This document shows, one piece after another, positions 1,895 to 60,899 of a DNA stretch of 64,000 nucleotides (its first letter is position 1; every line of letters starts with the position of its first letter). Location: sequence record OL964745.1; one strand, 5' to 3'. The position numbers and the translations under genes are program-made. The stretch comes from Escherichia phage T4. Under the pieces are notes generated by a model. The model saw nothing but the letters and a program-made list of their open reading frames with translations. It searched no databases and was not told the origin of the DNA.

Positions 1895-1912
1895 AAAGGG
1901 CCGAAGCCCTTT
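1895..1912 (-). terminator. UUCG-tetraloop hairpin at 3' end of a-gt
   Basis: Forward AAAGGGCCGAAGCCCTTT, minus-strand RNA stem with UUCG loop, U-rich flank. Confidence 0.4.
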
Positions 1913-3110
1913 ATTTTGTAATAATGTCAAACTGTTCTTTAAAGCAGAAGCTTGAATCTTGATGCTGATACAAAAATTCATATGCTTTTTCTCGCTCACG
2001 GTCATAAAGAGCTCGGTCAGATGACAGTTCTTTAATACGTTCAAATGTTGATTCCATATCATTTTCATCAAACCAAATGATACCGCTATCATGCGAGGTC
2101 AAAGGAGTATTATCAACACGGAATTTTAAATTTTCGCCAGTAGATTTCCAAAATACCGGAATTGTTCCACATGCACCAAGCTCGAGATGAGTATATTCGA
2201 GTGAGCGTTGTAAGTATTTCTGGTTAAGTTTACTCAACTGATATCCAAAGCCAGATTTACTCATTCGTTCAAGCATTTCACTATTAATATAACAATCTAG
2301 GATTTGTGCCGGTTGATTCGGCGCGAGATTCATTTTATCAATCTCACGATTACCGTAATATTCATACGGAATACCTTTTTCCTTAATTGCAATAAAAGCA
2401 GGGGAACGTTCCAGACCTTCCATTACAGTGGATTTACCAGCAGGTTTTAAGAATTTTTCATGAAAATCAAACATCTGGTAAAAACCTTTCCATGTAGTCG
2501 TACGACCAATCCAACGGTTGATATTCATGTTAATTTCAGAAACATCTTTCCAATAAGTTGACCGAACCTTCACAATATCCATAGGAGGCTGAAAATTATA
2601 TACTGTCGGTGCTTCTTCAATATCATCAAACAGAGAAACAGTTTCTGGATACCATTCTTTCATCAGAACTTTATTAAAATCACCATTATCAGAATGGCTA
2701 AAAATAACATCAGCTCGACGAACAGTTTCTTCTAATCCCAAATTTCGACGCAAAGAAAGAACAGAATGATCATGCTGATAAACTACAACACGAATAGAAG
2801 GTTTAATATTATCTAAAAGTTTTTTATAGTTAATCGTAGCTTCTTGAACGGAAGTAGCAGGAACAGAATTAATAATTAGAATATCACAATCATTTACTAG
2901 CTTAAGTGCTTTATCGTATTCTTTAGCTAAAATAACTGGAATTGAAAATGATTTGTGGTCATGAGAACTTGTACGAGTAAATGATTTATCTTTAGCATAA
3001 ACCAAAGTTACTTCATGACCATTTTTAATAAACCAATCACGTTGCTCGAGTGAGAATTTTGTTACACCACAACCTTCAAGACCTCGAGCCATAAAAATGC
3101 AAATACGCAT
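1911..3110 (-). CDS. a-gt: DNA alpha-glucosyltransferase
   Basis: 399-aa ORF matching T4 AGT from memory (MRICIFMARGLEGCGVTKFSLEQRDWFIKNGHEV...). Confidence 0.9.
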   Translation of the reverse strand: MRICIFMARGLEGCGVTKFSLEQRDWFIKNGHEVTLVYAKDKSFTRTSSHDHKSFSIPVILAKEYDKALKLVNDCDILIINSVPATSVQEATINYKKLLDNIKPSIRVVVYQHDHSVLSLRRNLGLEETVRRADVIFSHSDNGDFNKVLMKEWYPETVSLFDDIEEAPTVYNFQPPMDIVKVRSTYWKDVSEINMNINRWIGRTTTWKGFYQMFDFHEKFLKPAGKSTVMEGLERSPAFIAIKEKGIPYEYYGNREIDKMNLAPNQPAQILDCYINSEMLERMSKSGFGYQLSKLNQKYLQRSLEYTHLELGACGTIPVFWKSTGENLKFRVDNTPLTSHDSGIIWFDENDMESTFERIKELSSDRALYDREREKAYEFLYQHQDSSFCFKEQFDIITK

Positions 3111-3158
3111 AGTTTTCCTCTTTTCATTTAATAAATCATGTAAATAATATTTTATTTT

Positions 3159-3940
3159 CTATAAAACGCTACGAATAGGCCCAAACATATCCATAAGCAA
3201 TTTTGCTTTTTCCAGATTGCACTTTTTAATATTAGACATGCATCCTTTAACGGATACAGCTGCGTCTTTAATTCTAGGAAATACTCGTAATAATTTTCCA
3301 GTAGTATCATATTGAAATACTGGCACATTTCTTTTCTGAGTTATCCCACGTAGATTTAGACATTTTTTGTTTAGTTGCATTAGACATCCTAGAGGGCTTT
3401 CCTATGTTATCAGAATAATATTTCCATTGAAATCCTCCAGCGGTTTTCCTTTTACCATCTACACATTGTTTAATTGAAGTTGAACAGCTATGACATATCT
3501 TCTGCAGCATCTGTAATACATCTATATTTGCGAATAAAATTTCCATTTAAATCATATTGATAAATTGGTTTTCCAGCATTTCGTCTAGCGTTAGACATGT
3601 ATTTATTATCATCTTTCCAGAACTCTTTCATGCTTTCCGATATTGAAGAAGATACAGCTGTTTTAATCCATCCATACATTATTATTTAGTCTTGTTCCGT
3701 CAGAACTATAACATCATACGAATAGCTAAAGCCAATTTAGGAAGTCTATAAATTTTAAATAATAAATGCGCGGTAAAATGTTCTTCTGGTGTCAAAAGAA
3801 CTAAATTAGTTTTATCATCTGTACCACCCATACATCTAGGAATTATATGATGTGTTTCAGTATAGTATGTCAAAAGACTTTTATCATTGCCTCTGTTTAG
3901 TCCTTTTTCGATCAGTAAATTATATGTTTAAATAATTCAT
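3159..3940 (-). pseudogene. HNH homing-endonuclease-like gene with IENR/NUMOD-type DNA-binding repeats, split over at least four frames
   Basis: MNYLNI-stop, then HNH motif ETHHIIPRCMGGTDDKTNLVLLTPEEHFTAH in another frame, then three overlapping ORFs (3488-3679, 3307-3546, 3159-3380) each carrying VxQYDxxGxLIxxFxSIxDAA / GKRKTAGGFQWKY modules. Confidence 0.5.
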
Positions 3941-3974
3941 TTTAGTTTATTTTACCAAAAAATTTATAAAGCAA

Positions 3975-3994
3975 TAGGAGCCGAAGCTCCTATC
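3975..3994 (-). terminator. UUCG-tetraloop hairpin
   Basis: Forward ATAGGAGCCGAAGCTCCTAT. Confidence 0.35.
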
Positions 3995-4181
3995 CACATA
4001 ATACGCCATACAGAGGCTCGTTAGAACTTTTAAATTTTATGCGCTTATATGTTATAGTTCCTTCTGCTTTAGCTTTATCATGAGCCTCTTTAAAGCGTCT
4101 CATCATTTCCTCTCTAGAGGAACGAATTTTATTATAATCTATTTCAGAAGTCGGATGTTCATCTTTCACAGTTGCCACCAT
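3990..4181 (-). CDS. Hypothetical small basic protein
   Basis: 63-aa ORF in tightly packed early gene array. Confidence 0.35.
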   Translation of the reverse strand: MVATVKDEHPTSEIDYNKIRSSREEMMRRFKEAHDKAKAEGTITYKRIKFKSSNEPLYGVLCG

Positions 4182-4656: not shown

Positions 4657-4875
4657 TTATTTCTCTAATATAAAATAAAAATCATCATCTGTTAAATGAT
4701 ACCGATAGTTTAATTCTACACCATTAGATTTAAAAGCGGTATCATACGGATTTTCTGGATCAATATCAATGTCAAGAGCTAAAACTTCCCTGAGATACAT
4801 TTTAAGTAAATAGGGAATAGCTTCAACTTCAGGTATTTCTTCCAAGAATCCGGAGAGGTTAATCGTTAGCCTCAT
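4657..4875 (-). CDS. Hypothetical small protein
   Basis: ORF 4657-4902 trimmed to internal Met to limit overlap with gene 55. Confidence 0.3.
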
Positions 4876-5416
4876 ATAAAAAATCCAAACTAGGAGAATC
4901 ATCTACAACACTTTTCTTTTCAGCCCCCGGTGTTCTATAGGTTGATTCTTCGTAATGCGTCATTTTATCATAGATGTCTTGAATAAAAGTTTCATCTACT
5001 AACGCAACCATATCGTCGTCACGGCTGTCATAGACATTGTGAACGAAGTAACTATATTTCTTTGCAACTTCCTTACGTTCTTTTTTAATACGTTGGACGA
5101 ATGCATTAAAACAAGCTTGAGTTATATACGCATGTGGGTTTTTATATTTCGTTTCATCAAAATTGTGAAGCCCCTTAATAGAAGCTTCTATACCATCTGC
5201 AATCATTTCTTGTTTCCAAGACTGGGTGTATCCTGAAAAGTTGAAACGTTTAGATAAGCCTTCTGCAATAAGCATAATGGCTAATCCGATAGTATCATTC
5301 TGACGAACTACTTTATTTGGGTCTTTATTATTTGCTAATTCTGTTTTCCAATCAATAATAGCTTGTAAAAGCTCTTTATTGTTTACGTAATTATATTTAG
5401 GCTTAGTTTCTGACAT
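4859..5416 (-). CDS. 55: Late-transcription sigma factor gp55
   Basis: 185 aa from [23 protein letters not shown]..., matches T4 gp55 from memory. Confidence 0.9.
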
Positions 5417-5498
5417 TTTCACCTCTTAGCTCAATTCATAGATCTATTATATCATAATATTTGAAGACCTATCTTAAAGCATAGAGGATGAATCAATT

Positions 5499-11601: not shown

Positions 11602-11825
11602 ATTATTCCTTAATTCCTAGTACTTGTTTAAAAGTCTCGTCGTAATCAAGACTTTGGCCCGTTTGTTCTTTATGCTTGTATATAATCACTTACTTCTGAT
11701 AGCATATTTTTATATGAACGAGTTAAAGCAGATTTAAGCACGCTGTATCTATCAGGAAATTTACCGTGTTCATTATAATAAGCTTGCTAATTCACGGACT
11801 GCCTTTTCAGCAGTCTCCATATTCT

Positions 11826-12136
11826 TTACGCTTTGTCATTTTCTTCTCGGTCAAATCGGTGTTTACAATGGCGACATTTAACGAAGATTATTAGTCTGCC
11901 AATGGACCAATTGCACCTGTTCAGTTCCACATTCAGGGCAATTAGGAACGTTTTTAGAAGCCCTTTCGCGACGTTCAACCATGACCATTACAGAATCCCA
12001 ATTAACAGGAGGGCTAATCATCACAACCATAAATCTTTCCACGCATTTCCAGATCGTCTTCTTCACCAGCCATAATAATTTTAATTAGACTAGAATTACT
12101 TGAAGCTGCAATGTCTTCTAATAGACGCTTTTTCAT
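11826..12136 (-). pseudogene. Small zinc-ribbon ORF region with reading-frame discontinuities
   Basis: CPECG in one frame and CRHC 19 codons later in another frame; three short pieces. Confidence 0.3.
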
Positions 12137-12499: not shown

Positions 12500-12900
12500 T
12501 TCACGAAGGCTAATTACGAGTTTATATCCTTCCCAACCGCATATTCTTAAAAGGATATGTATGAATTTCTACTGTTTCCATACAAAGTAATGCGGTCTCT
12601 AATTGACGAGTTAGTGCTAGCAATTGAGAAAAATTTATTAATATTCTTTTGGTTAGTTTCTGGTGTAAAAAATCCATAATTCACAAATAGATACTTTATT
12701 TTTATCAAGTTCATATTCTTTTATGATAATCATATCAGAAGCCAAAGGATGAATTTGACGATAATCGCCAACATAATTTAGAAGCTGATTTTAGAATTTG
12801 CTTCTTGAAAAGTCTGAAATTACTAATCCAACGACGAGTAAAAATATTCTCAGGGTCTTCTTTATTATTGAGATGATAAGAATTAACATCACCGAACCAA

Positions 12901-13155
12901 TTATCCTACTACATCTTTAGTTCGTTTAATTTCTTTCCCAAAATTACCAAGAATATCCCGATTAACCAAATATGAAAGAAGACGAGACTCTTTAAAGGTT
13001 TTCTTGATAACATCTTTATCTACACGGCTAGAAATTTTACGAATTTCATGAATAAATTTAGTAGAAGAAACAATACTTGCATCAACACTATTGAGCCACT
13101 GATTGATAATAGAAAGAACGCTATTTTGGCCAAACATCGGTATAGCTATCATCAA
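12901..13155 (-). CDS. Hypothetical protein
   Basis: 84-aa ORF. Confidence 0.3.
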   Translation of the reverse strand: MMIAIPMFGQNSVLSIINQWLNSVDASIVSSTKFIHEIRKISSRVDKDVIKKTFKESRLLSYLVNRDILGNFGKEIKRTKDVVG

Positions 13156-13250
13156 TAACGCTATTGAATGATTTGATATTCGTTACGAGTCATATTAATC
13201 TCCTCAGTAGAAAGTAAGAACATTATACCACATCCTTGTGGCAAAGTAAA

Positions 13251-19722: not shown

Positions 19723-19980
19723 AAAGGCCTCCTATCATTTTTGTCCTGTATTTACTTTGTGCCGATGCACGGCCTTAACATCAAGGTATTTTTCAAAATT
19801 TCGCAATAGTATAGTCTGCCGGAGATTGGTTGAGTGATACTTCTCGACGCAAAGCTGAAATGATATTTCCAACTTCCCTACGAATTTCATCTAATTGAAG
19901 AACAGTAAGATTGCGAAGTTGCTTTTCAGTTAATTGTAGCATATACCCCTTTAGTTAGATACCTATTTATAACTTTTGCA

Positions 19981-20962: not shown

Positions 20963-21154
20963 CTACATGCTGTTTACGACCTTTCTTATCAATAAAGGTA
21001 TATTCAACGAATGTTCCAATGTAGTCTTATCTACATCATGTGGACTATTAATTGGACATTTAGTGCGACAAATGCGTTCCCATTGACGAATAATTACTGC
21101 CTTATTCTTTGGGTCATATGGATGTGGATAATGTATATTCATAATAGTTCCCAA
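20963..21154 (-). CDS. Hypothetical small protein
   Basis: 63-aa ORF. Confidence 0.35.
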   Translation of the reverse strand: MGTIMNIHYPHPYDPKNKAVIIRQWERICRTKCPINSPHDVDKTTLEHSLNIPLLIRKVVNSM

Positions 21155-21571
21155 TCAACAATCACAATTTCTAATTTAGAGGAATATGTATCTAAAATCC
21201 CCTCAATAATATCCCAGTTCCCTTTACCTATGCCTGCACCAATCCTAGGCATATAGATTGTAGGTTTAATCAGTTTATTTTCACCAAACTCATTTAATTC
21301 TAACATACAATTCATTAAAGCGGAATACTCAATTTGGCCCTGGTTGAAATTGAGTATAAAGATTGAAGCAGTAAGCTTTATGAGTCCTAAAGTATTTTTC
21401 ATAGACTGAGTAAGAACCGAGTTTAGTTACATCACCCCATTCAGTCTGTAATTTATCAGCTTCCAAAATTTTAGGGAAAGCTTTGGTTAATTGACCCGCT
21501 ACGCCTGAACCCATAGTATGAAAACAATTATCCATGTGCAATATTTTTACCTTCAGCGAAAAGGGCGACAA
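21139..21571 (-). pseudogene. Macro-domain-like ORF split by a frameshift
   Basis: Two overlapping same-strand ORFs (21329-21571, 21139-21402); glycine-rich HTMGSGVAGQ and IGAGIGKGNW segments. Confidence 0.35.
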
Positions 21572-21593
21572 TATCGCCCTTGATATTTTACAA

Positions 21594-24656: not shown

Positions 24657-25620
<964 letters not shown>

Positions 25621-25793
25621 TTTAATTTCCTGCATTCAGTGATAAAGTTATTTAAATTTTGAGCATATTTCTTTTCATCAAAAATCTTTTGCTGTCTGCG
25701 TAACCGCCATGGCATTTCAATGAACATACGCCATATTCCTGATAATACTGCTGCTGTAAAAATATTAACAAGTAGTTAAAAGAATCCAATCGC

Positions 25794-29394: not shown

Positions 29395-30054
29395 TTAAAA
29401 TTTCATTTTTCGACCTTTAAACCATCCTTCTGGAATTGGGTCAGTTTTCTTAATACGTTTAGAAACTTTTTCATCTAATGAATGAATCCACATCATACCG
29501 AATTGGGAATTCTTTTCACCTTTCTGGTGATTATTTTTGGCGTGAGATTCTTTCATTTTATTAATAGTTTCAGGAGTATGATGCTTATTTAGATCTGCTA
29601 TTATTTAAAAATTTTTCCCTGTATTCAGGAGTTGACCACAAACGTTTAAATACATTTGAACCAATTTTACGATATTTTTCTTGAAGTAAAATATCATTTT
29701 CAAAACGTGACTTAAACGATAGCTCCTTTTAAGCTAGCATCTTTCTTCTGGTTTAGCATTCCAGGAATATTTACATGATCCCATCCACCTTCACCGCCAA
29801 GTTTTAAATTATACACATCTGGTCTATTTAAAAACTCTTCTGTGACAATATTTTTCTCGGCTTCAAGCATAGATTCTTTATCGTCAAAATACTCTAATAT
29901 TTCTTTAGAAAAATTTTCTATACCATATTTATCTTGGGCTCTTTTTAATAATTTACCAGAACCCATATCCATCATCTAAATTTTCGGTAGAATGCACACC
30001 AATATAAATTTTATTATTAATTTTATTTGTTATTTTATAAGTGTAATAGAACAT
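29395..30054 (-). pseudogene. segB: GIY-YIG homing endonuclease (segB-like) split over four frames
   Basis: MFYYTYKITNKINNKIYIGVHSTENLDDGY-stop; MGSGKLLKRAQDKYGIENF (ORF 29712-29975); IGSNVFKRLWSTPEYREKF; NUMOD-like HTPETINKMKESHAK...PIPEGWFKGRKMKF; every junction a +1 shift. Confidence 0.55.
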
Positions 30055-30666: not shown

Positions 30667-30760
30667 ATTATTAACAAAGGCTCTCTAACAAGAACCCTTG
30701 ATGATAGAGGGTATTAATCAGTGCGGTATGAGTTAATAACAAATAATTCTTAAAGCATAT

Positions 30761-31036
30761 TTACCATTTATGATGATACGTATTTACGATACATTCAAGA
30801 CCCAAAGGATTCTTGAAAATATCATATTCAAGAGGACCTTTTTCTGTTTCAATAAAGAAATCAAAATTTACTGTATTAAATTTACGGTCTTCCTTTACTA
30901 ATTTAACTTGAGAAGATGAACGATCAATGTAAACCTTTTCAACTTCAAAACACGTTAAAATGCCATAATCATCAATCAAGGCTTTAGCTGCTTCTTGATC
31001 ATATTTATCCATTTTCAACGGATGATACTTTCGCAT
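30761..31036 (-). CDS. Hypothetical protein
   Basis: 91-aa ORF upstream of tRNA cluster. Confidence 0.4.
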   Translation of the reverse strand: MRKYHPLKMDKYDQEAAKALIDDYGILTCFEVEKVYIDRSSSQVKLVKEDRKFNTVNFDFFIETEKGPLEYDIFKNPLGLECIVNTYHHKW

Positions 31037-31039
31037 AAA

Positions 31040-31457
31040 GAATCATCATCAACCTCTATCAACAATAGCATGAGTATGGGCATTTACGATTTGCCACCAG
31101 TCGAAACGATTGGAACCATAATCTGGTTTATTTTCATTTTCTTTAATGATATCACGCAGTTTATCTTCTGTTTCAGCATACGCAATTAAATCATCATATC
31201 CACCACAAGGATAATAATTATCACCTGCGAATAAAAGAAAATTTACCTTAGATGGATTTACGTAATAATGGTCTTTAGGATATAGTTCCTCTCCAATCAG
31301 TTACTTCAACATAACGGTAAGAAAATCCATTTTTACTTTCAATCCAACTCCACGCTTCAAAAGGAGTATTAAAAACTTTATCAGGTATTAAATTACCTTC
31401 AAAATGAGAAGGATTTGCATAATCCCCGGCATAAACATAATATTCGTTAATACTCAT
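31040..31457 (-). CDS. Hypothetical protein region, possibly frame-split
   Basis: 60-aa ORF 31275-31457 followed in another frame by 74 codons without a start. Confidence 0.3.
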
Positions 31458-37849: not shown

Positions 37850-38365
37850 ATGGAAGGTTCTTCTATCGACGTCACCTTTACCGCTCAATTAGAAACAGGT
37901 GAAACGTTAGTATCTATAAATATAACTAGTTACGAAGAAACTCCTGGGGTTTTAGTAGAAGAAAATCGCTTATATGGAACATATGAATCTGTATTTGGTT
38001 TCGGAAATGACGCGTTGAAATATCGTTTAGGCGATGAATTTAAAACTGCTGCTTCATGGGAAGAACTTCCTACTGATTCTGATACTCAGTTGTATTTGTG
38101 GAAAGCTCCTCAAAACCTCCAGAAGACATTCACTTACGAAGTAACATTAATATATGACTACCAAGAACAAAGTGAATCTGGGGGTTCTGGCAGTAATTCT
38201 AGGTCATCTTCTGATACTACTGAACCGACAGATCCTCCTGCTCCAGTAAGAAAAACTCTAGTTAAAAATTATACTAAAACTATAGTTGGAAATTGGAGTC
38301 GTTGGGCTAATAAACTGAGAAAATGCCTATGCAAGACCATAAATATTTTTATTTGTATTCAATAA
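37850..38365 (+). CDS. 5.1: Hypothetical protein gp5.1
   Basis: Start at ATG 37850 with GGAG SD; the track ORF start at 37787 overlaps gp5. Confidence 0.5.
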   Translation: MEGSSIDVTFTAQLETGETLVSINITSYEETPGVLVEENRLYGTYESVFGFGNDALKYRLGDEFKTAASWEELPTDSDTQLYLWKAPQNLQKTFTYEVTLIYDYQEQSESGGSGSNSRSSSDTTEPTDPPAPVRKTLVKNYTKTIVGNWSRWANKLRKCLCKTINIFICIQ

Positions 38366-38910
38366 CTAATAAAACAACAGAAAAAATTTATGTAGGCGTC
38401 CACAAAACTTCAAATTTGGATGATGGGTATGGGTTCTGGCGTTGCCATTAAAAATGCCATTAAAATATGGCATAGATAATTTTTATAAGCATATTATAAA
38501 ATTCTTTGAATCTGAAAAAGCTATATGACGCAGAGGCAGAAATAGTCACAGAGGAATTTGTTAAATCTAAGAAAACTTATAATATGAAACTAGGCGGTAT
38601 CGGTGGCTTCCCAAAACATAACACAGCGGGTGCTAAAAATGGATTTTACGGTAAATCTCATTCGCGTGAAACTAGATTGAAAATTAGCATTAAATCGTCT
38701 AGAAAAAGAGGGCCTAGAGGGCCTAGAGGTAAAACTCTGAAGATGTGTGGCGCCAATAACCCAAGGTATGGCAAAATAGCCCCTAATGCTAAATCTGTTA
38801 TCAACGGCGTTTTATATAAAAGTATTAAAATCGCAGCTAAAGCTCTTAATATAAATTATAGTACCTTAAAGGGGCGAGTTAAAGCGGGGTATTATAAATG
38901 CCAGGATTAA
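38329..38910 (+). pseudogene. segC: GIY-YIG homing endonuclease (segC-like) split by three +1 frame shifts
   Basis: MQDHKYFYLYSITNKTTEKIYVGVHKTSNLDDGY (frame 1), MGSGVAIKNAIK (frame 2), KYGIDNFYKHIIKFFESEKAI (frame 3), then 134-aa ORF 38506-38910 in frame 1. Confidence 0.55.
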
Positions 38911-41182: not shown

Positions 41183-44100
41183 CAGTAAAAGCACCTTCAG
41201 TCACTAGTCTCAGAATTTCCAAGTTATCCGCAAATCAGGTGCAAGTACGCTGGGATGACGTTGGTGCTAATTTCTACAAAATAGTAGAAATCGCTGAGAC
41301 AAAAACAAACTCGGGGGAAAATCTCCCGAGTAATCAATATCGTTGGATTAATTTAGGATATACAGCAAATAATAGTTTCTTTTTTGATGATGCTGATCCA
41401 TTAACAACATACATTATTAGAGTAGCCACAGCTGCGCAAGATTTTGAGCAGTCTGATTGGATTTATACCGAAGAGTTTGAAACTTTTGCTACAAATGCTT
41501 ATACATTTCAAAACATGATTGAAATGCAATTAGCCAATAAATTCATTCAGGAAAAATTTACTCTTAATAATTCTGATTATGTTAATTTTAATAATGATAC
41601 TATAATGGCTGCATTGATGAATGAATCATTCCAATTCAGCCCATCGTATGTTGATGTTTCATCAATAAGTAATTTTATTATTGGTGAAAATGAGTATCAT
41701 GAAATACAAGGTTCTATTCAGCAAGTATGTAAGGATATTAACCGAGTTTATTTGATGGAATCAGAAGGAATTCTATATCTTTTTGAGCGCTATCAACCTG
41801 TAGTTAAAGTATCCAATGATAAAGGACAAACCTGGAAAGCTGTAAAGCTCTTCAATGACCGTGTAGGATATCCTTTATCTAAGACAGTATATTACCAATC
41901 TGCGAACACAACATACGTTCTAGGATACGACAAGATTTTCTATGGCCGCAAATCTACTGATGTTAGATGGTCAGCCGATGATGTCAGATTTAGTTCTCAG
42001 GATATAACATTTGCTAAACTTGGCGACCAATTACATCTAGGATTTGATGTAGAAATTTTTGCCACTTACGCGACTTTACCAGCGAATGTATACCGCATTG
42101 CAGAAGCTATTACTTGCACCGATGATTACATTTACGTTGTCGCCAGAGACAAAGTTAGATACATAAAAACGAGTAATGCACCTATAGATTCTGATCCATT
42201 ATCTCCAACATATTCGGAAAGACTTTTTGAACCTGATACCATGACTATAACCGGAAATCCTAAAGCAGTATGCTATAAAATGGATTCTATCTGTGATAAA
42301 GTTTTTGCTCTTATTATTGGTGAAGTTGAAACATTAAATGCTAATCCTAGAACATCAAAAATAATTGATTCCACTGATAAAGGAATATATGTTTTAAATC
42401 ATGACGAAAAAACATGGAAAAGAGTTTTTGGTAATACCGAAGAAGAAAGAAGACGTATTCAACCCGGATATGCGAATATGTCAACTGACGGTAAATTAGT
42501 TTCTCTGTCTTCGAGTAATTTTAAATTTTTAAGTGATAATGTTGTTAATGACCCTGAAACTGCAGCAAAATATCAGTTAATTGGCGCTGTTAAATATGAA
42601 TTTCCTCGTGAATGGTTAGCTGATAAGCATTATCATATGATGGCATTTATAGCGGATGAAACATCTGATTGGGAGACTTTTACTCCTCAACCAATGAAAT
42701 ACTACGCAGAACCATTCTTTAACTGGTCTAAAAAATCTAACACACGTTGTTGGATAAACAACTCTGATAGAGCTGTGGTAGTTTATGCTGATTTAAAATA
42801 CACTAAAGTTATAGAAAATATTCCGGAAACATCACCAGATAGATTAGTTCATGAATACTGGGATGATGGTGATTGCACTATAGTAATGCCAAATGTCAAA
42901 TTCACTGGATTTAAAAAATACGCATCAGGAATGCTTTTCTATAAAGCCTCCGGTGAAATAATTTCTTACTATGATTTTAACTATCGTGTGAGAGATACAG
43001 TAGAAATTATTTGGAAGCCAACTGAAGTATTTTTAAAAGCATTTTTACAAAACCAAGAGCATGAGACTCCTTGGTCACCAGAAGAAGAGCGTGGATTAGC
43101 TGACCCTGATTTAAGACCATTAATTGGCACAATGATGCCTGATTCTTATTTGTTACAGGATTCGAATTTTGAGGCATTTTGCGAAGCATATATTCAGTAT
43201 CTTTCTGATGGATATGGAACTCAATACAATAATTTACGAAATTTAATTCGTAACCAATATCCACGAGAAGAGCACGCATGGGAATATTTGTGGTCAGAGA
43301 TATATAAAAGAAACATTTATTTAAATGCTGATAAACGCGATGCTGTTGCGAGATTCTTTGAATCACGTAGCTATGATTTTTATTCTACTAAAGGAATTGA
43401 AGCATCATACAAGTTTCTTTTTAAAGTTCTTTATAATGAAGAAGTTGAAATTGAAATTGAATCTGGGGCTGGTACTGAATATGATATAATCGTTCAATCT
43501 GATTCTTTGACTGAAGATTTAGTAGGACAAACGATTTATACGGCAACAGGAAGATGTAATGTTACTTATATAGAAAGAAGCTATTCTAATGGTAAATTGC
43601 AATGGACCGTAACTATTCATAATCTTTTGGGACGATTAATTGCTGGTCAAGAAGTTAAAGCAGAAAGACTCCCTAGTTTTGAAGGCGAAATTATTCGTGG
43701 GGTTAAAGGAAAGGATTTGCTTCAAAACAATATAGACTATATTAATAGAAGTAGATCATACTATGTAATGAAAATTAAATCCAATTTACCTTCTTCCCGC
43801 TGGAAATCTGACGTTATTCGTTTTGTTCATCCAGTAGGATTTGGATTTATAGCAATTACCCTTTTAACAATGTTTATTAATGTTGGTTTAACTCTTAAAC
43901 ATACAGAGACTATAATTAATAAATACAAAAACTATAAATGGGATTCTGGATTGCCTACTGAATATGCCGACAGAATAGCTAAATTAACTCCAACCGGTGA
44001 AATTGAGCATGATTCAGTAACAGGCGAAGCAATTTATGAGCCTGGCCCAATGGCTGATGTAAAATATCCTCTTCCTGATGACTATAATGCTGAAAATAAT

Positions 44101-44277
44101 AATTCAATATTTCAAGGTCAATTGCCGTCTGAACGACGTAAATTAATGAGTCCTTTATTTGATGCATCTGGAACAACATTTGCGCAATTTAGAGATTTAG
44201 TTAATAAACGTCTAAAAGATAATATAGGAAATCCAAGAGACCCTGAAAATCCAACACAGGTTAAAATAGATGAATGA
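41179..44277 (+). CDS. 7: Baseplate wedge protein gp7
   Basis: 1032-aa ORF, T4 gp7 length; ATGA overlap with gp6. Confidence 0.9.
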   Translation: MTVKAPSVTSLRISKLSANQVQVRWDDVGANFYKIVEIAETKTNSGENLPSNQYRWINLGYTANNSFFFDDADPLTTYIIRVATAAQDFEQSDWIYTEEFETFATNAYTFQNMIEMQLANKFIQEKFTLNNSDYVNFNNDTIMAALMNESFQFSPSYVDVSSISNFIIGENEYHEIQGSIQQVCKDINRVYLMESEGILYLFERYQPVVKVSNDKGQTWKAVKLFNDRVGYPLSKTVYYQSANTTYVLGYDKIFYGRKSTDVRWSADDVRFSSQDITFAKLGDQLHLGFDVEIFATYATLPANVYRIAEAITCTDDYIYVVARDKVRYIKTSNAPIDSDPLSPTYSERLFEPDTMTITGNPKAVCYKMDSICDKVFALIIGEVETLNANPRTSKIIDSTDKGIYVLNHDEKTWKRVFGNTEEERRRIQPGYANMSTDGKLVSLSSSNFKFLSDNVVNDPETAAKYQLIGAVKYEFPREWLADKHYHMMAFIADETSDWETFTPQPMKYYAEPFFNWSKKSNTRCWINNSDRAVVVYADLKYTKVIENIPETSPDRLVHEYWDDGDCTIVMPNVKFTGFKKYASGMLFYKASGEIISYYDFNYRVRDTVEIIWKPTEVFLKAFLQNQEHETPWSPEEERGLADPDLRPLIGTMMPDSYLLQDSNFEAFCEAYIQYLSDGYGTQYNNLRNLIRNQYPREEHAWEYLWSEIYKRNIYLNADKRDAVARFFESRSYDFYSTKGIEASYKFLFKVLYNEEVEIEIESGAGTEYDIIVQSDSLTEDLVGQTIYTATGRCNVTYIERSYSNGKLQWTVTIHNLLGRLIAGQEVKAERLPSFEGEIIRGVKGKDLLQNNIDYINRSRSYYVMKIKSNLPSSRWKSDVIRFVHPVGFGFIAITLLTMFINVGLTLKHTETIINKYKNYKWDSGLPTEYADRIAKLTPTGEIEHDSVTGEAIYEPGPMADVKYPLPDDYNAENNNSIFQGQLPSERRKLMSPLFDASGTTFAQFRDLVNKRLKDNIGNPRDPENPTQVKIDE

Positions 44278-45274
44278 TTCAAGTGTTATCTATCGTGCGA
44301 TAGTTACTTCAAAATTTAGAACAGAAAAAATGTTGAATTTTTATAATTCAATTGGAAGTGGTCCGGATAAAAACACTATCTTTATCACATTTGGAAGATC
44401 AGAACCGTGGTCATCAAATGAAAATGAGGTGGGCTTTGCCCCACCTTATCCAACCGATTCTGTATTAGGCGTAACTGACATGTGGACGCATATGATGGGA
44501 ACAGTAAAAGTTCTTCCATCAATGCTTGATGCTGTTATTCCTCGCAGAGATTGGGGAGATACTAGATATCCGGATCCATACACATTTAGAATTAACGATA
44601 TTGTAGTGTGTAACTCAGCTCCTTACAACGCTACTGAATCAGGCGCTGGTTGGTTAGTGTATCGTTGTTTAGATGTTCCTGATACCGGAATGTGTTCAAT
44701 AGCATCTTTAACTGATAAAGATGAATGCCTTAAGTTAGGTGGAAAATGGACTCCTTCTGCTAGGTCAATGACTCCGCCTGAAGGTCGAGGAGATGCTGAA
44801 GGAACAATTGAACCCGGAGACGGGTATGTGTGGGAATATCTATTTGAGATTCCGCCTGATGTATCTATAAATAGATGCACGAATGAATATATCGTGGTTC
44901 CTTGGCCTGAGGAATTAAAAGAAGACCCGACTAGATGGGGATATGAAGATAATCTCACTTGGCAACAAGATGATTTTGGATTAATTTACCGTGTTAAGGC
45001 AAATACTATCCGTTTTAAAGCATATTTAGATTCAGTTTATTTTCCTGAAGCTGCATTGCCAGGAAATAAAGGATTTAGACAAATATCAATAATCACGAAT
45101 CCTCTTGAAGCTAAAGCTCATCCAAATGACCCAAACGTTAAAGCTGAAAAGGATTATTATGACCCAGAAGATTTAATGAGGCATTCGGGTGAAATGATTT
45201 ATATGGAAAATAGGCCACCTATTATTATGGCAATGGATCAAACAGAAGAAATCAATATTCTGTTTACATTTTAA
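44270..45274 (+). CDS. 8: Baseplate wedge protein gp8
   Basis: 334-aa ORF. Confidence 0.9.
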   Translation: MNDSSVIYRAIVTSKFRTEKMLNFYNSIGSGPDKNTIFITFGRSEPWSSNENEVGFAPPYPTDSVLGVTDMWTHMMGTVKVLPSMLDAVIPRRDWGDTRYPDPYTFRINDIVVCNSAPYNATESGAGWLVYRCLDVPDTGMCSIASLTDKDECLKLGGKWTPSARSMTPPEGRGDAEGTIEPGDGYVWEYLFEIPPDVSINRCTNEYIVVPWPEELKEDPTRWGYEDNLTWQQDDFGLIYRVKANTIRFKAYLDSVYFPEAALPGNKGFRQISIITNPLEAKAHPNDPNVKAEKDYYDPEDLMRHSGEMIYMENRPPIIMAMDQTEEINILFTF

Positions 45275-48671: not shown

Positions 48672-50251
48672 GTAATAATACATATCAACACGTTTCTAAT
48701 GAATCTCGTTATGTAAAATTTGATCCTACCGATACGAATTTTCCACCGGAGATTACTGATGTTCAGGCTGCTATAGCAGCCATTTCTCCTGCTGGAGTAA
48801 ATGGAGTTCCTGATGCATCGTCAACAACAAAGGGAATTCTATTTCTTGCCACTGAACAGGAAGTTATAGATGGAACTAATAATACCAAAGCAGTTACACC
48901 AGCAACGTTGGCAACAAGATTATCTTATCCAAATGCAACTGAAACTGTTTACGGATTAACAAGATATTCAACCAATGATGAAGCCATTGCCGGAGTTAAT
49001 AATGAATCTTCTATAACTCCAGCTAAATTTACTGTCGCCCTTAATAATGCGTTTGAAACGCGAGTTTCAACTGAATCCTCAAATGGTGTTATTAAAATTT
49101 CATCTCTACCGCAAGCATTAGCTGGTGCAGATGATACTACTGCAATGACTCCATTAAAAACACAGCAGTTAGCTATTAAATTAATTGCGCAAATTGCTCC
49201 TTCTGAAACCACAGCTACCGAATCGGACCAAGGTGTTGTTCAATTAGCAACAGTAGCGCAGGTTCGTCAGGGAACTTTAAGAGAAGGCTATGCAATTTCT
49301 CCTTATACGTTTATGAATTCATCTGCTACTGAAGAATATAAAGGCGTAATTAAATTAGGAACACAATCAGAAGTTAACTCGAATAATGCTTCTGTTGCGG
49401 TTACTGGCGCAACTCTTAATGGTCGTGGTTCTACGACGTCAATGAGAGGCGTAGTTAAATTAACTACAACCGCCGGTTCACAGAGTGGAGGCGATGCTTC
49501 ATCAGCCTTAGCTTGGAATGCTGACGTTATCCACCAAAGAGGTGGTCAAATTATCTATGGAACACTCCGCATTGAAGACACATTTACAATAGCTAATGGT
49601 GGAGCAAATATTACGGGTACCGTCAGAATGACTGGCGGTTATATTCAAGGTAACCGCATCGTAACACAAAATGAAATTGATAGAACTATTCCTGTCGGAG
49701 CTATTATGATGTGGGCCGCTGATAGTCTTCCTAGTGATGCTTGGCGCTTCTGCCATGGTGGAACTGTTTCAGCGTCAGATTGTCCATTATATGCTTCTAG
49801 AATTGGAACAAGATATGGCGGAAACCCATCAAATCCTGGATTGCCTGACATGCGTGGTCTTTTTGTTCGTGGTTCTGGTCGTGGTTCTCACTTAACAAAT
49901 CCAAATGTTAATGGTAATGACCAATTTGGTAAACCTAGATTAGGTGTAGGTTGTACCGGTGGATATGTTGGTGAAGTACAGAAACAACAGATGTCTTATC
50001 ATAAACATGCTGGCGGATTTGGTGAGTATAATGATTCTGGGGCATTCGGTAATACCCGTAGATCAAATTTTGTTGGTACACGTAAAGGACTTGACTGGGA
50101 TAACCGTTCATACTTCACCAATGACGGATATGAAATTGACCCAGAATCACAACGAAATTCCAAATATACATTAAATCGTCCTGAATTAATTGGAAATGAA
50201 ACACGTCCATGGAACATTTCTTTAAACTACATAATTAAGGTAAAAGAATGA
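48668..50251 (+). CDS. 12: Short tail fibre protein gp12
   Basis: 527-aa ORF. Confidence 0.9.
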
Positions 50252-51711
50252 CAGATATTGTACTGAATGACTTACCATTCGTTGACGGCCCTCCTGCAGA
50301 GGGCCAGAGCCGCATTTCCTGGATTAAAAACGGCGAAGAAATATTAGGAGCTGACACACAGTATGGAAGTGAAGGCTCAATGAATAGACCTACGGTTTCT
50401 GTACTAAGAAATGTTGAAGTTCTTGATAAAAACATTGGAATACTTAAAACATCTTTAGAAACCGCAAATAGTGATATTAAAACAATTCAGGGCATCTTAG
50501 ATGTATCTGGTGATATTGAAGCTTTGGCCCAAATAGGTATCAATAAAAAGGATATTTCTGACCTCAAAACGCTAACCAGTGAACACACAGAAATATTAAA
50601 TGGAACTAATAATACGGTTGACAGTATTCTTGCCGATATTGGTCCATTTAACGCCGAGGCCAACTCTGTATACAGAACGATCAGAAATGATTTACTGTGG
50701 ATAAAGCGTGAACTTGGACAATACACTGGTCAAGATATTAATGGTCTTCCTGTTGTAGGAAATCCTAGTAGTGGAATGAAGCATCGCATTATTAATAATA
50801 CTGATGTCATCACTTCGCAGGGAATACGTTTAAGCAAATTAGAAACAAAATTTATTGAATCTGATGTAGGTTCTTTGACCATTGAAGTTGGTAATCTTCG
50901 TGAAGAGCTTGGACCGAAACCACCATCATTTTCACAGAACGTTTATAGTCGTTTAAATGAAATTGACACTAAACAGACAACAGTTGAGTCTGACATTAGT
51001 GCTATTAAGACCTCAATAGGATATCCAGGAAATAATTCGATTATCACGAGTGTTAATACAAACACTGATAATATTGCATCTATTAATTTAGAGCTAAATC
51101 AAAGTGGAGGTATTAAACAGCGTTTAACCGTTATTGAAACTTCCATTGGTTCAGATGATATTCCTTCGAGTATTAAAGGTCAAATCAAAGATAATACAAC
51201 TTCAATCGAATCTCTAAATGGAATCGTCGGTGAAAACACTTCATCTGGCTTAAGAGCGAATGTTTCATGGTTAAACCAAATTGTTGGAACTGATTCTAGC
51301 GGTGGACAACCTTCTCCTCCTGGGTCTCTTTTAAACCGAGTTTCTACAATTGAAACTTCTGTTTCAGGCTTGAATAACGATGTTCAAAACCTACAAGTAG
51401 AGATTGGTAATAACAGCACAGGAATTAAAGGGCAAGTTGTAGCGTTAAATACTTTAGTAAATGGAACTAATCCAAACGGTTCAACTGTTGAAGAGCGCGG
51501 ATTAACCAATTCAATAAAAGCTAACGAAACTAACATTGCATCAGTTACACAAGAAGTGAATACAGCTAAAGGCAATATATCTTCTTTACAAGGTGATGTT
51601 CAAGCTCTCCAAGAAGCCGGTTATATTCCTGAAGCTCCAAGAGATGGGCAAGCTTACGTTCGTAAAGATGGCGAATGGGTATTGCTTTCTACCTTTTTAT
51701 CACCAGCATAA
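50248..51711 (+). CDS. wac: Fibritin (whisker) Wac
   Basis: 487-aa ORF, coiled-coil heptad segments, C-terminal foldon-like [27 protein letters not shown]. Confidence 0.9.
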
Positions 51712-53485: not shown

Positions 53486-56626
<3,141 letters not shown>

Positions 56627-56654
56627 TATTAAAGCATATTAAAGAGGATTAAAA

Positions 56655-58634
56655 ATGACTTTATTATCTCCGGGCATTGAGCTCAAAGAAACTACGGTTC
56701 AAAGCACCGTAGTTAATAACTCTACTGGTACAGCAGCTTTGGCCGGTAAATTCCAGTGGGGTCCTGCTTTTCAGATTAAACAGGTTACAAATGAAGTAGA
56801 TTTAGTTAATACTTTTGGTCAACCAACCGCTGAAACTGCTGACTATTTTATGTCTGCGATGAATTTCTTGCAGTACGGAAATGACTTACGAGTAGTTCGT
56901 GCTGTTGATAGAGATACCGCTAAAAACTCATCGCCAATTGCTGGTAATATTGAATACACAATTTCTACCCCAGGTAGTAGCTATGCGGTTGGAGATAAAA
57001 TCACGGTCAAATATGTTTCAGATGATATTGAAACTGAAGGTAAAATTACTGAAGTAGACGCAGATGGAAAAATTAAGAAAATTAATATTCCTACTGCAAA
57101 AATTATCGCTAAAGCGAAAGAAGTCGGTGAATATCCAACACTAGGTTCTAACTGGACTGCGGAAATTTCTTCATCTTCCTCTGGTTTAGCTGCAGTAATA
57201 ACTCTTGGAAAAATTATTACTGATTCTGGTATTTTATTAGCTGAAATTGAAAATGCTGAAGCTGCTATGACAGCGGTTGACTTTCAAGCAAATCTTAAAA
57301 AATATGGAATTCCAGGAGTAGTAGCGCTTTATCCAGGCGAATTAGGCGATAAAATTGAAATTGAAATCGTATCTAAAGCTGACTATGCAAAAGGAGCTTC
57401 TGCATTACTCCCAATTTATCCAGGTGGTGGTACTCGTGCATCTACTGCTAAAGCAGTGTTTGGATATGGACCGCAAACTGATTCACAGTACGCTATTATA
57501 GTTCGTCGTAATGATGCTATTGTTCAAAGCGTTGTTCTTTCAACTAAGCGTGGTGAAAAAGATATTTACGATAGTAACATCTATATCGATGACTTTTTCG
57601 CAAAAGGTGGTTCAGAATATATTTTTGCAACTGCACAAAACTGGCCAGAAGGCTTCTCTGGAATTTTAACTCTGTCTGGTGGATTATCATCAAATGCTGA
57701 AGTAACAGCAGGAGATTTGATGGAAGCTTGGGACTTCTTTGCTGACCGTGAATCTGTTGACGTTCAACTGTTTATTGCAGGTTCTTGTGCCGGTGAATCT
57801 TTAGAAACAGCATCTACTGTCCAAAAACACGTCGTTTCAATTGGGGATGCTCGCCAAAATTGCTTAGTATTGTGCTCTCCTCCGCGTGAAACTGTAGTTG
57901 GAATTCCTGTAACCCGTGCTGTTGATAACTTAGTCAATTGGAGAACTGCGGCAGGTTCATACACTGATAATAACTTTAATATCAGTTCAACCTATGCAGC
58001 AATTGATGGTAACTATAAGTATCAGTATGACAAATATAATGATGTGAATCGTTGGGTTCCATTAGCAGCTGATATTGCTGGTTTATGCGCAAGAACTGAT
58101 AACGTATCTCAGACTTGGATGTCTCCAGCTGGTTATAATCGTGGTCAGATTCTTAACGTTATTAAACTTGCTATTGAAACTCGCCAGGCTCAGCGCGACC
58201 GTTTATACCAAGAAGCTATCAACCCGGTAACCGGTACAGGTGGTGATGGTTACGTATTGTATGGTGATAAAACAGCTACTTCTGTTCCTTCTCCATTTGA
58301 TCGTATTAACGTTCGTCGTCTGTTTAATATGTTGAAAACGAATATCGGACGTAGTTCAAAATATCGTTTGTTCGAATTAAACAACGCGTTTACTCGTTCA
58401 TCATTCCGCACAGAAACTGCCCAGTACTTACAGGGAATTAAAGCTCTCGGTGGAATTTATGAATATCGTGTAGTTTGCGATACAACAAATAACACTCCGT
58501 CAGTAATTGATAGAAATGAGTTTGTTGCAACATTCTACATCCAACCGGCTAGAAGCATTAACTACATTACCTTAAACTTCGTAGCAACTGCTACTGGTGC
58601 AGATTTCGATGAGTTAACTGGTCTTGCTGGTTAA
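56655..58634 (+). CDS. 18: Tail sheath protein gp18
   Basis: 659-aa ORF. Confidence 0.95.
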   Translation: MTLLSPGIELKETTVQSTVVNNSTGTAALAGKFQWGPAFQIKQVTNEVDLVNTFGQPTAETADYFMSAMNFLQYGNDLRVVRAVDRDTAKNSSPIAGNIEYTISTPGSSYAVGDKITVKYVSDDIETEGKITEVDADGKIKKINIPTAKIIAKAKEVGEYPTLGSNWTAEISSSSSGLAAVITLGKIITDSGILLAEIENAEAAMTAVDFQANLKKYGIPGVVALYPGELGDKIEIEIVSKADYAKGASALLPIYPGGGTRASTAKAVFGYGPQTDSQYAIIVRRNDAIVQSVVLSTKRGEKDIYDSNIYIDDFFAKGGSEYIFATAQNWPEGFSGILTLSGGLSSNAEVTAGDLMEAWDFFADRESVDVQLFIAGSCAGESLETASTVQKHVVSIGDARQNCLVLCSPPRETVVGIPVTRAVDNLVNWRTAAGSYTDNNFNISSTYAAIDGNYKYQYDKYNDVNRWVPLAADIAGLCARTDNVSQTWMSPAGYNRGQILNVIKLAIETRQAQRDRLYQEAINPVTGTGGDGYVLYGDKTATSVPSPFDRINVRRLFNMLKTNIGRSSKYRLFELNNAFTRSSFRTETAQYLQGIKALGGIYEYRVVCDTTNNTPSVIDRNEFVATFYIQPARSINYITLNFVATATGADFDELTGLAG

Positions 58635-59249: not shown

Positions 59250-60899
<1,650 letters not shown>

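What the first reader, a model, noticed from the sequence alone, without database searches (positions are those of the whole stretch)
3159..3940. HNH endonuclease with tandem IENR-like repeats, decayed across four or more frames, between a-gt and gene 55
Seen: a short MNYLNI-stop start, then an HNH catalytic motif (ETHHIIPRCMGGTDDKTNLVLLTPEEHFTAH) in another frame with no start codon, then three mutually overlapping ORFs in three frames that each carry a copy of the DNA-binding module (V/I)xQYDxxGxLIxxFxSIxDAA...GKRKTAGGFQWKY. Inference: a mob-type free-standing homing endonuclease that is a pseudogene, or whose sequence contains indel errors.
Basis: partly seen in the sequence, partly recalled or inferred. 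Interest (0 to 1): 0.55.

Follow-up and report, generated by a model that had tools for sequence, protein, structure and literature searches.

The report
T4 mobB gene broken by laboratory micro-deletions
This is the well-known phage T4 homing-endonuclease gene mobB, broken by about ten tiny deletions that arose in a published CRISPR-Cas9 genome-reduction experiment, so it is neither a natural pseudogene nor a sequencing error, and it is not new.

Summary
The window is phage T4 (about 34,714-105,882 of NC_000866). It is not wild type. It is a sibling of the GenBank record 'Mutant T4 clone T4_583L' (MZ375356), made by CiPGr, an iterative Cas9 and sgRNA-library genome reduction (Yuan et al. 2022).

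Window 3169-3940 (minus strand) is T4 mobB, which encodes a 264-aa protein with one HNH domain and two NUMOD1 modules. Against the reference it has no substitutions. It has ten small deletions in the coding sequence: six frameshifting (five of 2 bp, one of 1 bp) and four in-frame 3-bp losses. An eleventh, of 2 bp, lies just upstream. The first one creates TAA at codon 7, giving MNYLNI-stop.

The gene is dead in this genome. There are two DNA-binding repeats, not three.

Sequencing error is excluded. There are 49 micro-deletions in 5.9 kb of nine dispensable gene stretches. There are none of 2-4 bp in 30 kb of structural genes that hold more of the same A/T contexts. Forty-seven are shared with T4_583L, and none occur in an independent T4 isolate.

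Natural decay is excluded, because wild relatives carry intact 264-aa ORFs.

One point stays open. The deletions are not enriched at SpCas9 NGG cut sites, and a third lie outside any NGG protospacer. Interest is low.

The parts
3169..3940 (-). Remnant of T4 mobB. It is 772 bp against 795 bp in the reference, which encodes a 264-aa HNH + 2x NUMOD1 homing endonuclease.
   Evidence: The alignment to NC_000866 37885-38679 shows 0 substitutions and only small deletions.
3921..3940 (-). Original start codon and codons 1-6 (MNYLNI). The 2-bp deletion (TA of TATATAT, T4 38658) at the 3920/3921 junction creates an in-frame TAA at codon 7.
3706..3873 (-). ORF fragment (TTG start, 55 aa) carrying the HNH catalytic motif. 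It corresponds to MobB residues about 25-79 and has lost one Leu through a 3-bp deletion at the 3757/3758 junction.
   Evidence: Pfam HNH PF01844, 24.5 bits, E 3e-5
3488..3679 (-). ORF fragment with the linker and the first 26 positions of NUMOD1 copy 1 (MobB residues 91-156). It contains two in-frame 3-bp deletions at 3605-3608.
   Evidence: Pfam NUMOD1, 39.6 bits
3307..3546 (-). ORF fragment whose 3351-3488 portion encodes the tail of NUMOD1 copy 1 (GKRKTAGGFQWKY) and a weak NUMOD3-like stretch (MobB residues 157-204). It has an in-frame 3-bp deletion at the 3413/3414 junction.
   Evidence: Weak I-HmuI_NUMOD-like and NUMOD3 hits
3159..3380 (-). ORF fragment whose 3218-3350 portion encodes NUMOD1 copy 2 (MobB residues 205-249). 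It then reads out of frame to a stop at 3159.
   Evidence: Pfam NUMOD1, 43.0 bits
3169..3217 (-). Last 16 codons of MobB (ISGKSKIAYGYVWAYS-stop), displaced into another frame by the 1-bp deletion at the 3217/3218 junction.
3974..3990 (.). Intergenic 2-bp deletion (AT, T4 38713) at the 3973/3974 junction. It is followed by the GGAGCCGAAGCTCC hairpin between a-gt.2 and mobB.
   Evidence: The homologous hairpin is annotated as a terminator in phage fPS-2.
1911..3110 (-). a-gt (alpha-glucosyltransferase), the downstream neighbour. It is intact but carries one in-frame 3-bp deletion (TTA) at the 2829/2830 junction, giving 399 aa against 400.
3990..4181 (-). a-gt.2, the upstream neighbour, identical to T4.

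Best explanation
The region is phage T4's free-standing HNH homing-endonuclease gene mobB. It was inactivated in the laboratory.

The window comes from a T4 clone of the CiPGr lineage. In that experiment T4 was passaged hundreds of times on E. coli carrying SpCas9 and an sgRNA/donor library with about eight spacers per non-essential gene. Under that pressure the lineage fixed many 1-4 bp deletions, almost all of A/T bases in short tandem A/T repeats, inside targeted dispensable genes.

In mobB, ten such deletions are in the coding sequence and one is just upstream. They put a stop at codon 7 and split the reading frame into seven segments. No functional endonuclease can be made.

Shown here:
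- The identity of the gene.
- The exact lesions.
- Their restriction to dispensable genes.
- Their sharing with T4_583L.
- Their absence from wild T4 and its relatives.

Inferred: most of the deletions were selected because they destroy Cas9 target sites, that is, they are CRISPR escape mutations. Some may instead be collateral products of break repair.
For: Identity:
- Window 3100-4000 matches every T4 record over 926 bp, with differences only at gaps.
- The reference annotates mobB at that place, between a-gt and a-gt.2.
- Intact MobB gives Pfam HNH (22.5 bits), NUMOD1 x2 (92.6 bits) and I-HmuI_NUMOD-like (30.4 bits). It also matches PHROG 655 'homing endonuclease' at E 4.5e-53.

Lineage:
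- The best match is MZ375356 'Mutant T4 clone T4_583L' at 99.4%.
- The window and 583L share 47 small deletions, the precise nrdC.3 deletion and the left ends of two large deletions. Each also has private deletions.
- Yuan et al. 2022 (PMC9825161) describe the method. [quoted passage not shown]

Real mutations under selection:
- There are 49 micro-deletions in 5.9 kb of nine dispensable gene stretches. There are none of 2-4 bp in 30.1 kb of structural genes that hold 27 ATATAT-type and 463 TATA/ATAT contexts. Poisson P is about 1e-108.
- There are none in the 3-kb e.2-e.8 block, which is itself deletable.
- All 50 deletions of 2-4 bp are absent from the independent isolate MT984581. The 31 events that isolate shares with the window are all single-base substitutions or 1-bp indels.
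- Eight of 12 window-private loci have a 583L-private deletion call within 12 bp, against 0.24 expected. The re-alignment displayed six of these for at least one clone. Three show clearly independent deletions, two are nested or partly shared, and one could not be compared.
- Eight of the 11 mobB-region loci each fall in one or two AT-rich NGG protospacers. That number matches the design of eight spacers per gene.
- a-gt next door carries only an in-frame 3-bp deletion.
Against: - Across all 55 micro-deletions there is no enrichment at SpCas9 NGG cut sites: 18/55 within 1 bp, against a 27% null, p = 0.2.
- 18 of 55 lie outside any NGG protospacer or PAM. That is 67% inside, against 77% for random positions.
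- Three mobB loci (T4 38211, 38329, 38335) sit in a stretch with no GG or CC nearby.
- The strong preference for 2-bp losses, including TTTA to TA, is not what the earlier T4 escape study reported. It found substitutions, 2-nt insertions and deletions of hundreds of bp.
- The sgRNA list is in a supplement that I could not read.
- The window's own record was not identified.
Confidence: 0.9

Rival explanations
1. The indels are sequencing or assembly errors in an otherwise intact mobB gene.
For: Every difference from T4 in mobB is a short deletion in low-complexity A/T sequence. The genomes were assembled de novo from short reads with SOAPdenovo.
Against: - The errors would have to avoid 30 kb of structural genes that hold several times more of the same contexts.
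- They would have to cluster in nine dispensable genes.
- They would have to recur at 47 identical positions in an independently assembled sibling clone, while differing at others.
- They would have to be in-frame in a-gt but frameshifting in mobB.
- The authors saw the same class of deletions in population reads.
Confidence: 0.04
2. This is a natural, evolutionarily decaying homing-endonuclease pseudogene in a wild T4-like phage, as in the usual invasion-decay-loss cycle of such genes.
For: - Homing-endonuclease genes do decay. T4 I-TevIII is an example.
- mobB is sporadic among relatives. It is fully present in 25 records, whereas 539 records match a neighbouring region.
Against: - There are no substitutions in 772 bp alongside ten deletions.
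- Wild homologues in G8, fPS-2 and CJY920 (91-96% DNA identity) all keep an intact 264-aa ORF.
- All other T4 records are intact.
- The window carries designed or laboratory deletions shared with a named laboratory mutant.
Confidence: 0.02
3. The micro-deletions are real and laboratory-derived, but most were not selected as Cas9 target-site escapes. Instead they are collateral products of error-prone repair or replication around Cas9 breaks or bound Cas9 in targeted genes. They would then hitch-hike with one true escape or accumulate in genes that are already dead.
For: - There is no enrichment at NGG cut sites, and one third lie outside any NGG protospacer.
- Clustering is tight and gene-specific.
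- The mutational signature is uniform: 113 of 120 deleted bases are A/T, and 2-bp losses dominate.
Against: - Eight of 11 mobB loci do each sit in a distinct NGG protospacer.
- The sites with clearly independent deletions in the two clones that I checked by eye mostly lie in the PAM or PAM-proximal part of an NGG protospacer (sequences, my inspection).
- Fixing this many neutral changes without selection is unlikely.
- Non-canonical PAMs were not examined.
Confidence: 0.2
4. The fragments are independent small genes, or one gene read through by programmed frameshifting.
For: Several fragments have ATG or TTG starts.
Against: The reference and wild relatives encode one continuous 264-aa protein over the same DNA. 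The fragments cut through the Pfam domains. Six frameshifts would be needed.
Confidence: 0.01

Closest known systems
Phage T4 MobB (NP_049674, gene mobB / a-gt.1, T4 37885-38679)
   Same: It is the same gene at the same locus (a-gt/a-gt.2). Every retained base is identical. It has the same HNH + 2x NUMOD1 architecture.
   Different: 23 bp are missing from the CDS in ten small deletions. There is a stop at codon 7 and six frameshifts, so no full-length product is possible.
mobB remnant of 'Mutant T4 clone T4_583L' (MZ375356; Yuan et al. 2022, CiPGr)
   Same: It shares the same lineage and ten of the window's eleven mobB-region deletions. Only a 73-aa fragment is annotated there as 'MobB homing endonuclease'.
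   Different: The window has an extra TTT deletion (T4 38326-38331). It lacks 583L's TA deletion at T4 38247. Overall the window clone is less reduced, with smaller large deletions.
T4 MobE and MobA, and I-HmuI (HNH homing endonucleases with modular DNA-binding tails)
   Same: All have an N-terminal HNH nuclease fused to a string of small DNA-binding modules. MobB matches Pfam's I-HmuI_NUMOD-like family. According to the review, MobA, MobE and I-HmuI nick one strand.
   Different: MobB's activity and target have never been determined; the review table lists them as 'ND' and 'unknown'. By sequence, no close solved structure was found; there are only weak HNH-motif hits with E >= 0.04.
T4 CRISPR escape mutants described by Wu et al. 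2021 (minihomology recombination and repair)
   Same: In both cases T4 under Cas9 pressure fixes changes that remove target sites in dispensable genes.
   Different: That study found substitutions, 2-nt insertions and deletions of hundreds of bp between 3-7 nt homologies. Here there are 1-4 bp A/T deletions, and a third are not in NGG protospacers.

Membership tests
HNH (His-Me finger) endonuclease, Pfam PF01844 | The sequence matches the HNH profile above the curated cut-off. | tested here: met
   Intact T4 MobB scores 22.5 bits and the window fragment 3706-3873 scores 24.5 bits, against a cut-off of 21.4.
HNH homing endonuclease with NUMOD DNA-binding modules | NUMOD1 repeats lie C-terminal to the nuclease domain. 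| tested here: met
   NUMOD1 PF07453 has two stretches totalling 92.6 bits in the intact protein. Both copies are recognisable in the window fragments (39.6 and 43.0 bits). There are two copies, not three.
Functional homing endonuclease gene | A continuous ORF joins the nuclease and DNA-binding domains. | tested here: not met
   There is a stop at codon 7 and six frameshifts.
Functional homing endonuclease gene | Demonstrated site-specific cleavage or nicking, and homing. | not testable with these tools
   The review table lists mobB activity as 'ND' and its target as 'unknown'.
T4 mobB orthologue | Nucleotide identity to T4 mobB, and synteny between a-gt and a-gt.2. | tested here: met
   All aligned bases are identical, the flanks are the same and the annotated neighbours are the same.
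CiPGr (Cas9-reduced) T4 lineage | Derived mutations shared with a named CiPGr clone. | tested here: met
   47 small deletions, the precise nrdC.3 deletion and two large-deletion left ends are shared with MZ375356. None of the 2-4 bp deletions is in the independent T4 isolate MT984581.
CRISPR escape mutation | The mutation lies in the protospacer or PAM of an sgRNA that was actually used. | tested here: inconclusive
   Eight of 11 mobB loci lie in an NGG protospacer. Overall there is no enrichment over the null, and 18 of 55 lie outside any NGG site. The spacer list is not available.
CRISPR escape mutation | Confined to targeted (non-essential) genes, and recurrent at the same sites in independent clones. 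| tested here: met
   8.25 per kb in the hit genes, against 0 in 30 kb of structural genes. Eight of 12 window-private loci are re-hit within 12 bp in 583L, against 0.24 expected.
Natural pseudogene | Substitutions accumulate together with indels, and the decayed state is seen in wild isolates. | tested here: not met
   There are 0 substitutions. G8, fPS-2, CJY920 and all other T4 records are intact.
Sequencing or assembly artefact | Errors follow sequence context regardless of gene function. | tested here: not met
   The same contexts are more abundant in the structural genes, yet never deleted there.

The most novel reading that the evidence does not exclude
The clusters of 2-bp A/T deletions record a localised, break- or Cas9-associated mutagenic process in T4. 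In this reading, 'mutation showers' occur within a few hundred bp of targeted sites, independent of the PAM or protospacer. Simple target-site escape would then be only part of the story. The one third of deletions that lie outside any NGG protospacer would be its direct footprint.
Probability: 0.15. Interest if true: 0.45.

Novelty: already known. Interest (0 to 1): 0.1.

Why it matters
It matters mainly as a caution. A gene that looks like a decaying homing-endonuclease pseudogene, or like a badly sequenced one, is here the scar of a published laboratory CRISPR genome-reduction experiment on T4. It tells us nothing about the natural evolution of mobB, which is intact in wild T4 and its relatives.

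The one useful residue is the mutational signature. It consists of gene-clustered 2-bp A/T deletions that are not enriched at Cas9 cut sites. The original authors noted them only in passing. They could be examined against the published spacer list.

Tried and rejected
- **Cut-site test.** I tested whether the micro-deletions sit at SpCas9 NGG cut sites, seeds or PAMs. I used random intervals, all slippable di/tri-nucleotide sites, and all A/T-only 2-bp deletions in the same genes as nulls. There was no enrichment. The escape reading therefore rests on clustering and recurrence, not on PAM geometry.
- **Stop-codon design.** I checked whether the deletions were designed to create stop codons. 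Only the first mobB deletion does so; the others do not (my inspection).
- **Large-deletion junctions.** I checked them for minihomology of the kind Wu et al. describe. Only 0-1 bp was found.
- **Spacer tables.** The supplementary spacer tables of Yuan et al. are not held.
- **Source record.** An exact-protein look-up to identify the window's own record found nothing.
- **Solved structures.** A sequence search gave only weak HNH-motif hits (E >= 0.04) and no I-HmuI hit.
- **Promoters and terminators.** The sigma-70 scan of 3050-4050 was at chance level (5 sites found, 5.2 expected, no terminator). No TATAAATA late promoter lies in the region. The embedded-promoter statement from the review could not be checked here.
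- **Cas12a TTTV PAM loss.** I considered this as an explanation for the TTTA to TA deletions. I set it aside because the study used SpCas9 and the test would not discriminate in AT-rich DNA.

Full report
**What is there**

The minus strand of window 3150-3945 reads MNYLNI-stop from the ATG at 3940. The HNH motif ETHHIIPRCMGGTDDKTNLVLLTPEEHFTAH lies in another frame. Three overlapping ORFs (3488-3679, 3307-3546, 3159-3380) occupy three different frames. The flanking ORFs are gp47 (715-1734), alpha-glucosyltransferase a-gt (1911-3110), a-gt.2 (3990-4181) and gp55 (4859-5422).

A megablast of 3100-4000 against phage records hits every T4 genome over 926 bp. The reference annotates mobB there as an 'H-N-H family homing endonuclease', 795 bp and 264 aa, between a-gt and a-gt.2.

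**Check of the motifs**

Intact T4 MobB gives these Pfam hits:
- HNH, 22.5 bits (cut-off 21.4).
- NUMOD1 in two stretches, 92.6 bits.
- I-HmuI_NUMOD-like, 30.4 bits.
- NUMOD3, sub-threshold.

It also matches PHROG 655 'homing endonuclease' at E 4.5e-53.

The window fragments carry the following:
- HNH is in 3706-3873.
- The first 26 positions of NUMOD1 copy 1 are in 3488-3679.
- The tail of copy 1 is in 3307-3546.
- NUMOD1 copy 2 is in 3159-3380.

**The lesions**

A three-way alignment of window, T4 reference and the best hit shows no substitution in the whole 900 bp. There are only small deletions. Mapped onto the gene from the N-terminus, they are:
- -2 bp at T4 38658, which makes TAA at codon 7.
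- -3 bp, removing one Leu.
- -2 bp.
- -2 bp.
- -3 bp and -3 bp, changing DDDNKKY to DDNKY.
- -2 bp.
- -3 bp, removing one Tyr.
- -2 bp.
- -1 bp.

That is ten events and 23 bp lost, comprising six frameshifts and four in-frame losses. One further 2-bp deletion lies in the upstream intergenic region, next to the GGAGCCGAAGCTCC hairpin. The remnant spans window 3169-3940.

**Where the window comes from**

The only hit with at least 99% identity is MZ375356, 'Mutant Escherichia phage T4 clone T4_583L'. A full-text search traces that name to Yuan et al. 2022, NAR 50:13183 (PMC9825161). The paper describes CiPGr as follows:
- Phages were passaged 300-600 times on E. coli carrying SpCas9 and a pooled plasmid library.
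- The library held about eight spacers per gene plus 50-bp-arm donors.
- Structural and known essential genes were excluded.
- For T4 the authors report undesigned large-fragment losses (nrdG-D, nrdC.11-mobD.3, vs.3-denV and others).

Aligning the whole window to T4 shows exactly this picture. There are four large deletions:

| T4 coordinates | Size | Genes affected |
|---|---|---|
| 42802-44847 | 2046 bp | nrdG / mobC / nrdD |
| 48955-49859 | 905 bp | precise removal of nrdC.3, keeping its last 22 bp |
| 55554-57599 | 2046 bp | nrdC.11 / mobD |
| 62789-64842 | 2054 bp | vs.3-vs.8 |

There are also 65 small deletions.

The window and T4_583L share 47 small deletions, the nrdC.3 deletion and the left ends of two large deletions. 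583L has longer deletions and 62 private events, and the window has 15 private events. The window is therefore a sibling clone of the same lineage and is less reduced. Its own record was not found.

**Sequencing error, or real and selected?**

Comparison with an independent modern T4 isolate (MT984581) separates two classes cleanly:
- 31 events are shared with that isolate. All are single-base substitutions or 1-bp indels, so they are strain background or old reference errors.
- All 50 deletions of 2-4 bp are specific to the CiPGr lineage.

The lineage-specific deletions are strongly clustered:
- 49 fall in 5.9 kb made up of mobB, nrdC.1/.2, nrdC.4, rI.1, tk.3/.4, nudE, segB, trna.2/.3 and segC/5.3. 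That is 8.25 per kb.
- Not one deletion of 2-4 bp occurs in 30.1 kb of structural genes. Those genes contain 27 ATATAT-type, 463 TATA/ATAT and 663 TTTA/TAAA contexts. Poisson P is about 1e-108.
- None occurs in the e.2-e.8 block or in the a-gt.2-55.8 block.
- a-gt, right next to mobB, carries a single in-frame 3-bp deletion.

Of 12 window-private loci, eight have a 583L-private deletion call within 12 bp, where 0.24 is expected. The re-alignment displayed six of these eight loci for at least one clone. Their status is:
- Three show clearly independent deletions: T4 48675 vs 48686, 50397 vs 50401, and 60930 vs 60924.
- Two are nested or partly shared. At mobB 38326-38337 the window adds TTT to a shared ATC loss. 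The 50273 deletion is the same in both clones, and 583L adds one at 50262.
- At 60809 only the window sequence was recovered.

Context-driven sequencing error cannot produce this distribution. Wild relatives with 91-96% DNA identity (G8, fPS-2, CJY920) all keep an intact 264-aa MobB ORF. Together with the absence of substitutions, this rules out natural decay.

**How the deletions arose**

The authors' suggestion, Cas9 escape, fits several observations:
- The clustering is gene-specific.
- There are recurrent hits.
- The change in a-gt is in-frame only.
- In mobB, eight of the 11 loci each lie in one or two AT-rich NGG protospacers. That number equals the design of eight spacers per gene.

The fit is incomplete. 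Over all 55 micro-deletions:
- There is no enrichment at NGG cut sites: 18/55 within 1 bp against a 27% null, p = 0.2.
- There is no enrichment in the seed or PAM. 67% lie in any NGG protospacer or PAM, against 77% for random positions, and 18 of 55 lie outside all of them.
- Three mobB loci (T4 38211, 38329, 38335) sit in a stretch free of GG and CC.

The signature is uniform. Of 120 deleted bases, 113 are A or T. Two-bp losses dominate at 38 of 65. Most are one-unit slippages in (AT)n, (TA)n, AAT, ATC or ATAA repeats, with recurrent TTTA to TA and TAAA to TA. This differs from the escape spectrum of Wu et al. 2021, which consisted of substitutions, 2-nt insertions and deletions of hundreds of bp at 3-7-nt minihomologies.

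I therefore hold 'laboratory-derived, real, selected in targeted genes' at about 0.9. The narrower claim, 'each is a target-site escape', I hold at about 0.6-0.7. Collateral mutagenesis around breaks is the live alternative for the orphan third. The spacer tables that would settle this are not held.

**Comparison with what is known**

mobB is one of T4's five mob genes. The Edgell, Gibb and Belfort review lists it as free-standing, HNH, inserted between alpha-gt and alpha-gt.2, with activity 'ND' and target 'unknown'. [quoted passage not shown]

That could explain why this lineage keeps a scarred mobB rather than deleting it. This is my inference only. My promoter scans were at chance level and found no late-promoter consensus there.

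mobB is sporadic among relatives. Twenty-five records carry it in full, whereas 539 match a neighbouring region. That is typical of a mobile endonuclease gene.

**Verdict**

The cause is a published laboratory CRISPR experiment. It is neither evolution nor sequencing error. Nothing here is new, and interest is low. The only open thread is the PAM-independent third of the micro-deletions.

Noticed in passing
window 8057, 12154/12155, 17827/17828, 22996/22997: There are four large deletions relative to T4: 2046 bp (nrdG-mobC-nrdD), 905 bp (precise nrdC.3 removal keeping its last 22 bp, evidently a designed 'cassette-gene' edit), 2046 bp (nrdC.11-mobD) and 2054 bp (vs.3-vs.8). The three ~2-kb junctions have 0-1 bp of microhomology. 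Two are exactly the same length, which is odd for undesigned losses. T4_583L shares the left ends of the first and third but has different right ends.
   Followed up: partly
window 11685-12015, 12541-13176, 19780-19961, 21027-21583, 25234-25773, 29593-29965, 30734-31283, 38323-38798: Clusters of 2-3 bp A/T deletions of the same kind disrupt nrdC.1/.2, nrdC.4, rI.1, tk.3/tk.4, nudE, segB, trna.2/.3 and segC/5.3. Neighbouring dispensable genes (a-gt.2-55.8, e.2-e.8) have none.
   Followed up: partly
whole window; e.g. 3489, 3605-3608 (T4 38211, 38329-38337): 18 of 55 lineage-specific micro-deletions lie outside any SpCas9 NGG protospacer or PAM, and there is no enrichment at cut sites. 113 of 120 deleted bases are A/T, and 2-bp losses dominate, including TTTA to TA. 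Simple target-site escape does not explain this.
   Followed up: partly
window 2830 (a-gt): There is an in-frame 3-bp deletion (TTA of TTATTA) in alpha-glucosyltransferase, giving 399 aa against 400. It is the only lesion in that gene. This fits a tolerated change in a gene the phage needs to keep.
   Followed up: no
window 41278-41283 (gene 7, T4 83159-83164): Four T>A changes turn TATTTT into AAAATA, its exact reverse complement. The six bases lie between the inverted repeats ATTTCTAC and GTAGAAAT. This is a hairpin-loop inversion (quasipalindrome template switch) that would change gp7 residues 34-35 from Tyr-Phe to Lys-Ile. It is shared with T4_583L and absent from isolate MT984581.
   Followed up: partly
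window 5506, 6084/6099, 7662, 14389, 16643, 18292, 27434, 29273, 38722 and 20 substitutions: 31 single-base differences from NC_000866 are also present in the independent isolate MT984581. These include 1-bp indels that change the annotated lengths of 55.1 and 55.3 and fuse segC with 5.3. They are strain background or old reference errors, not part of the CRISPR lineage. The reference also has an N at T4 70346, which reads G here.
   Followed up: partly
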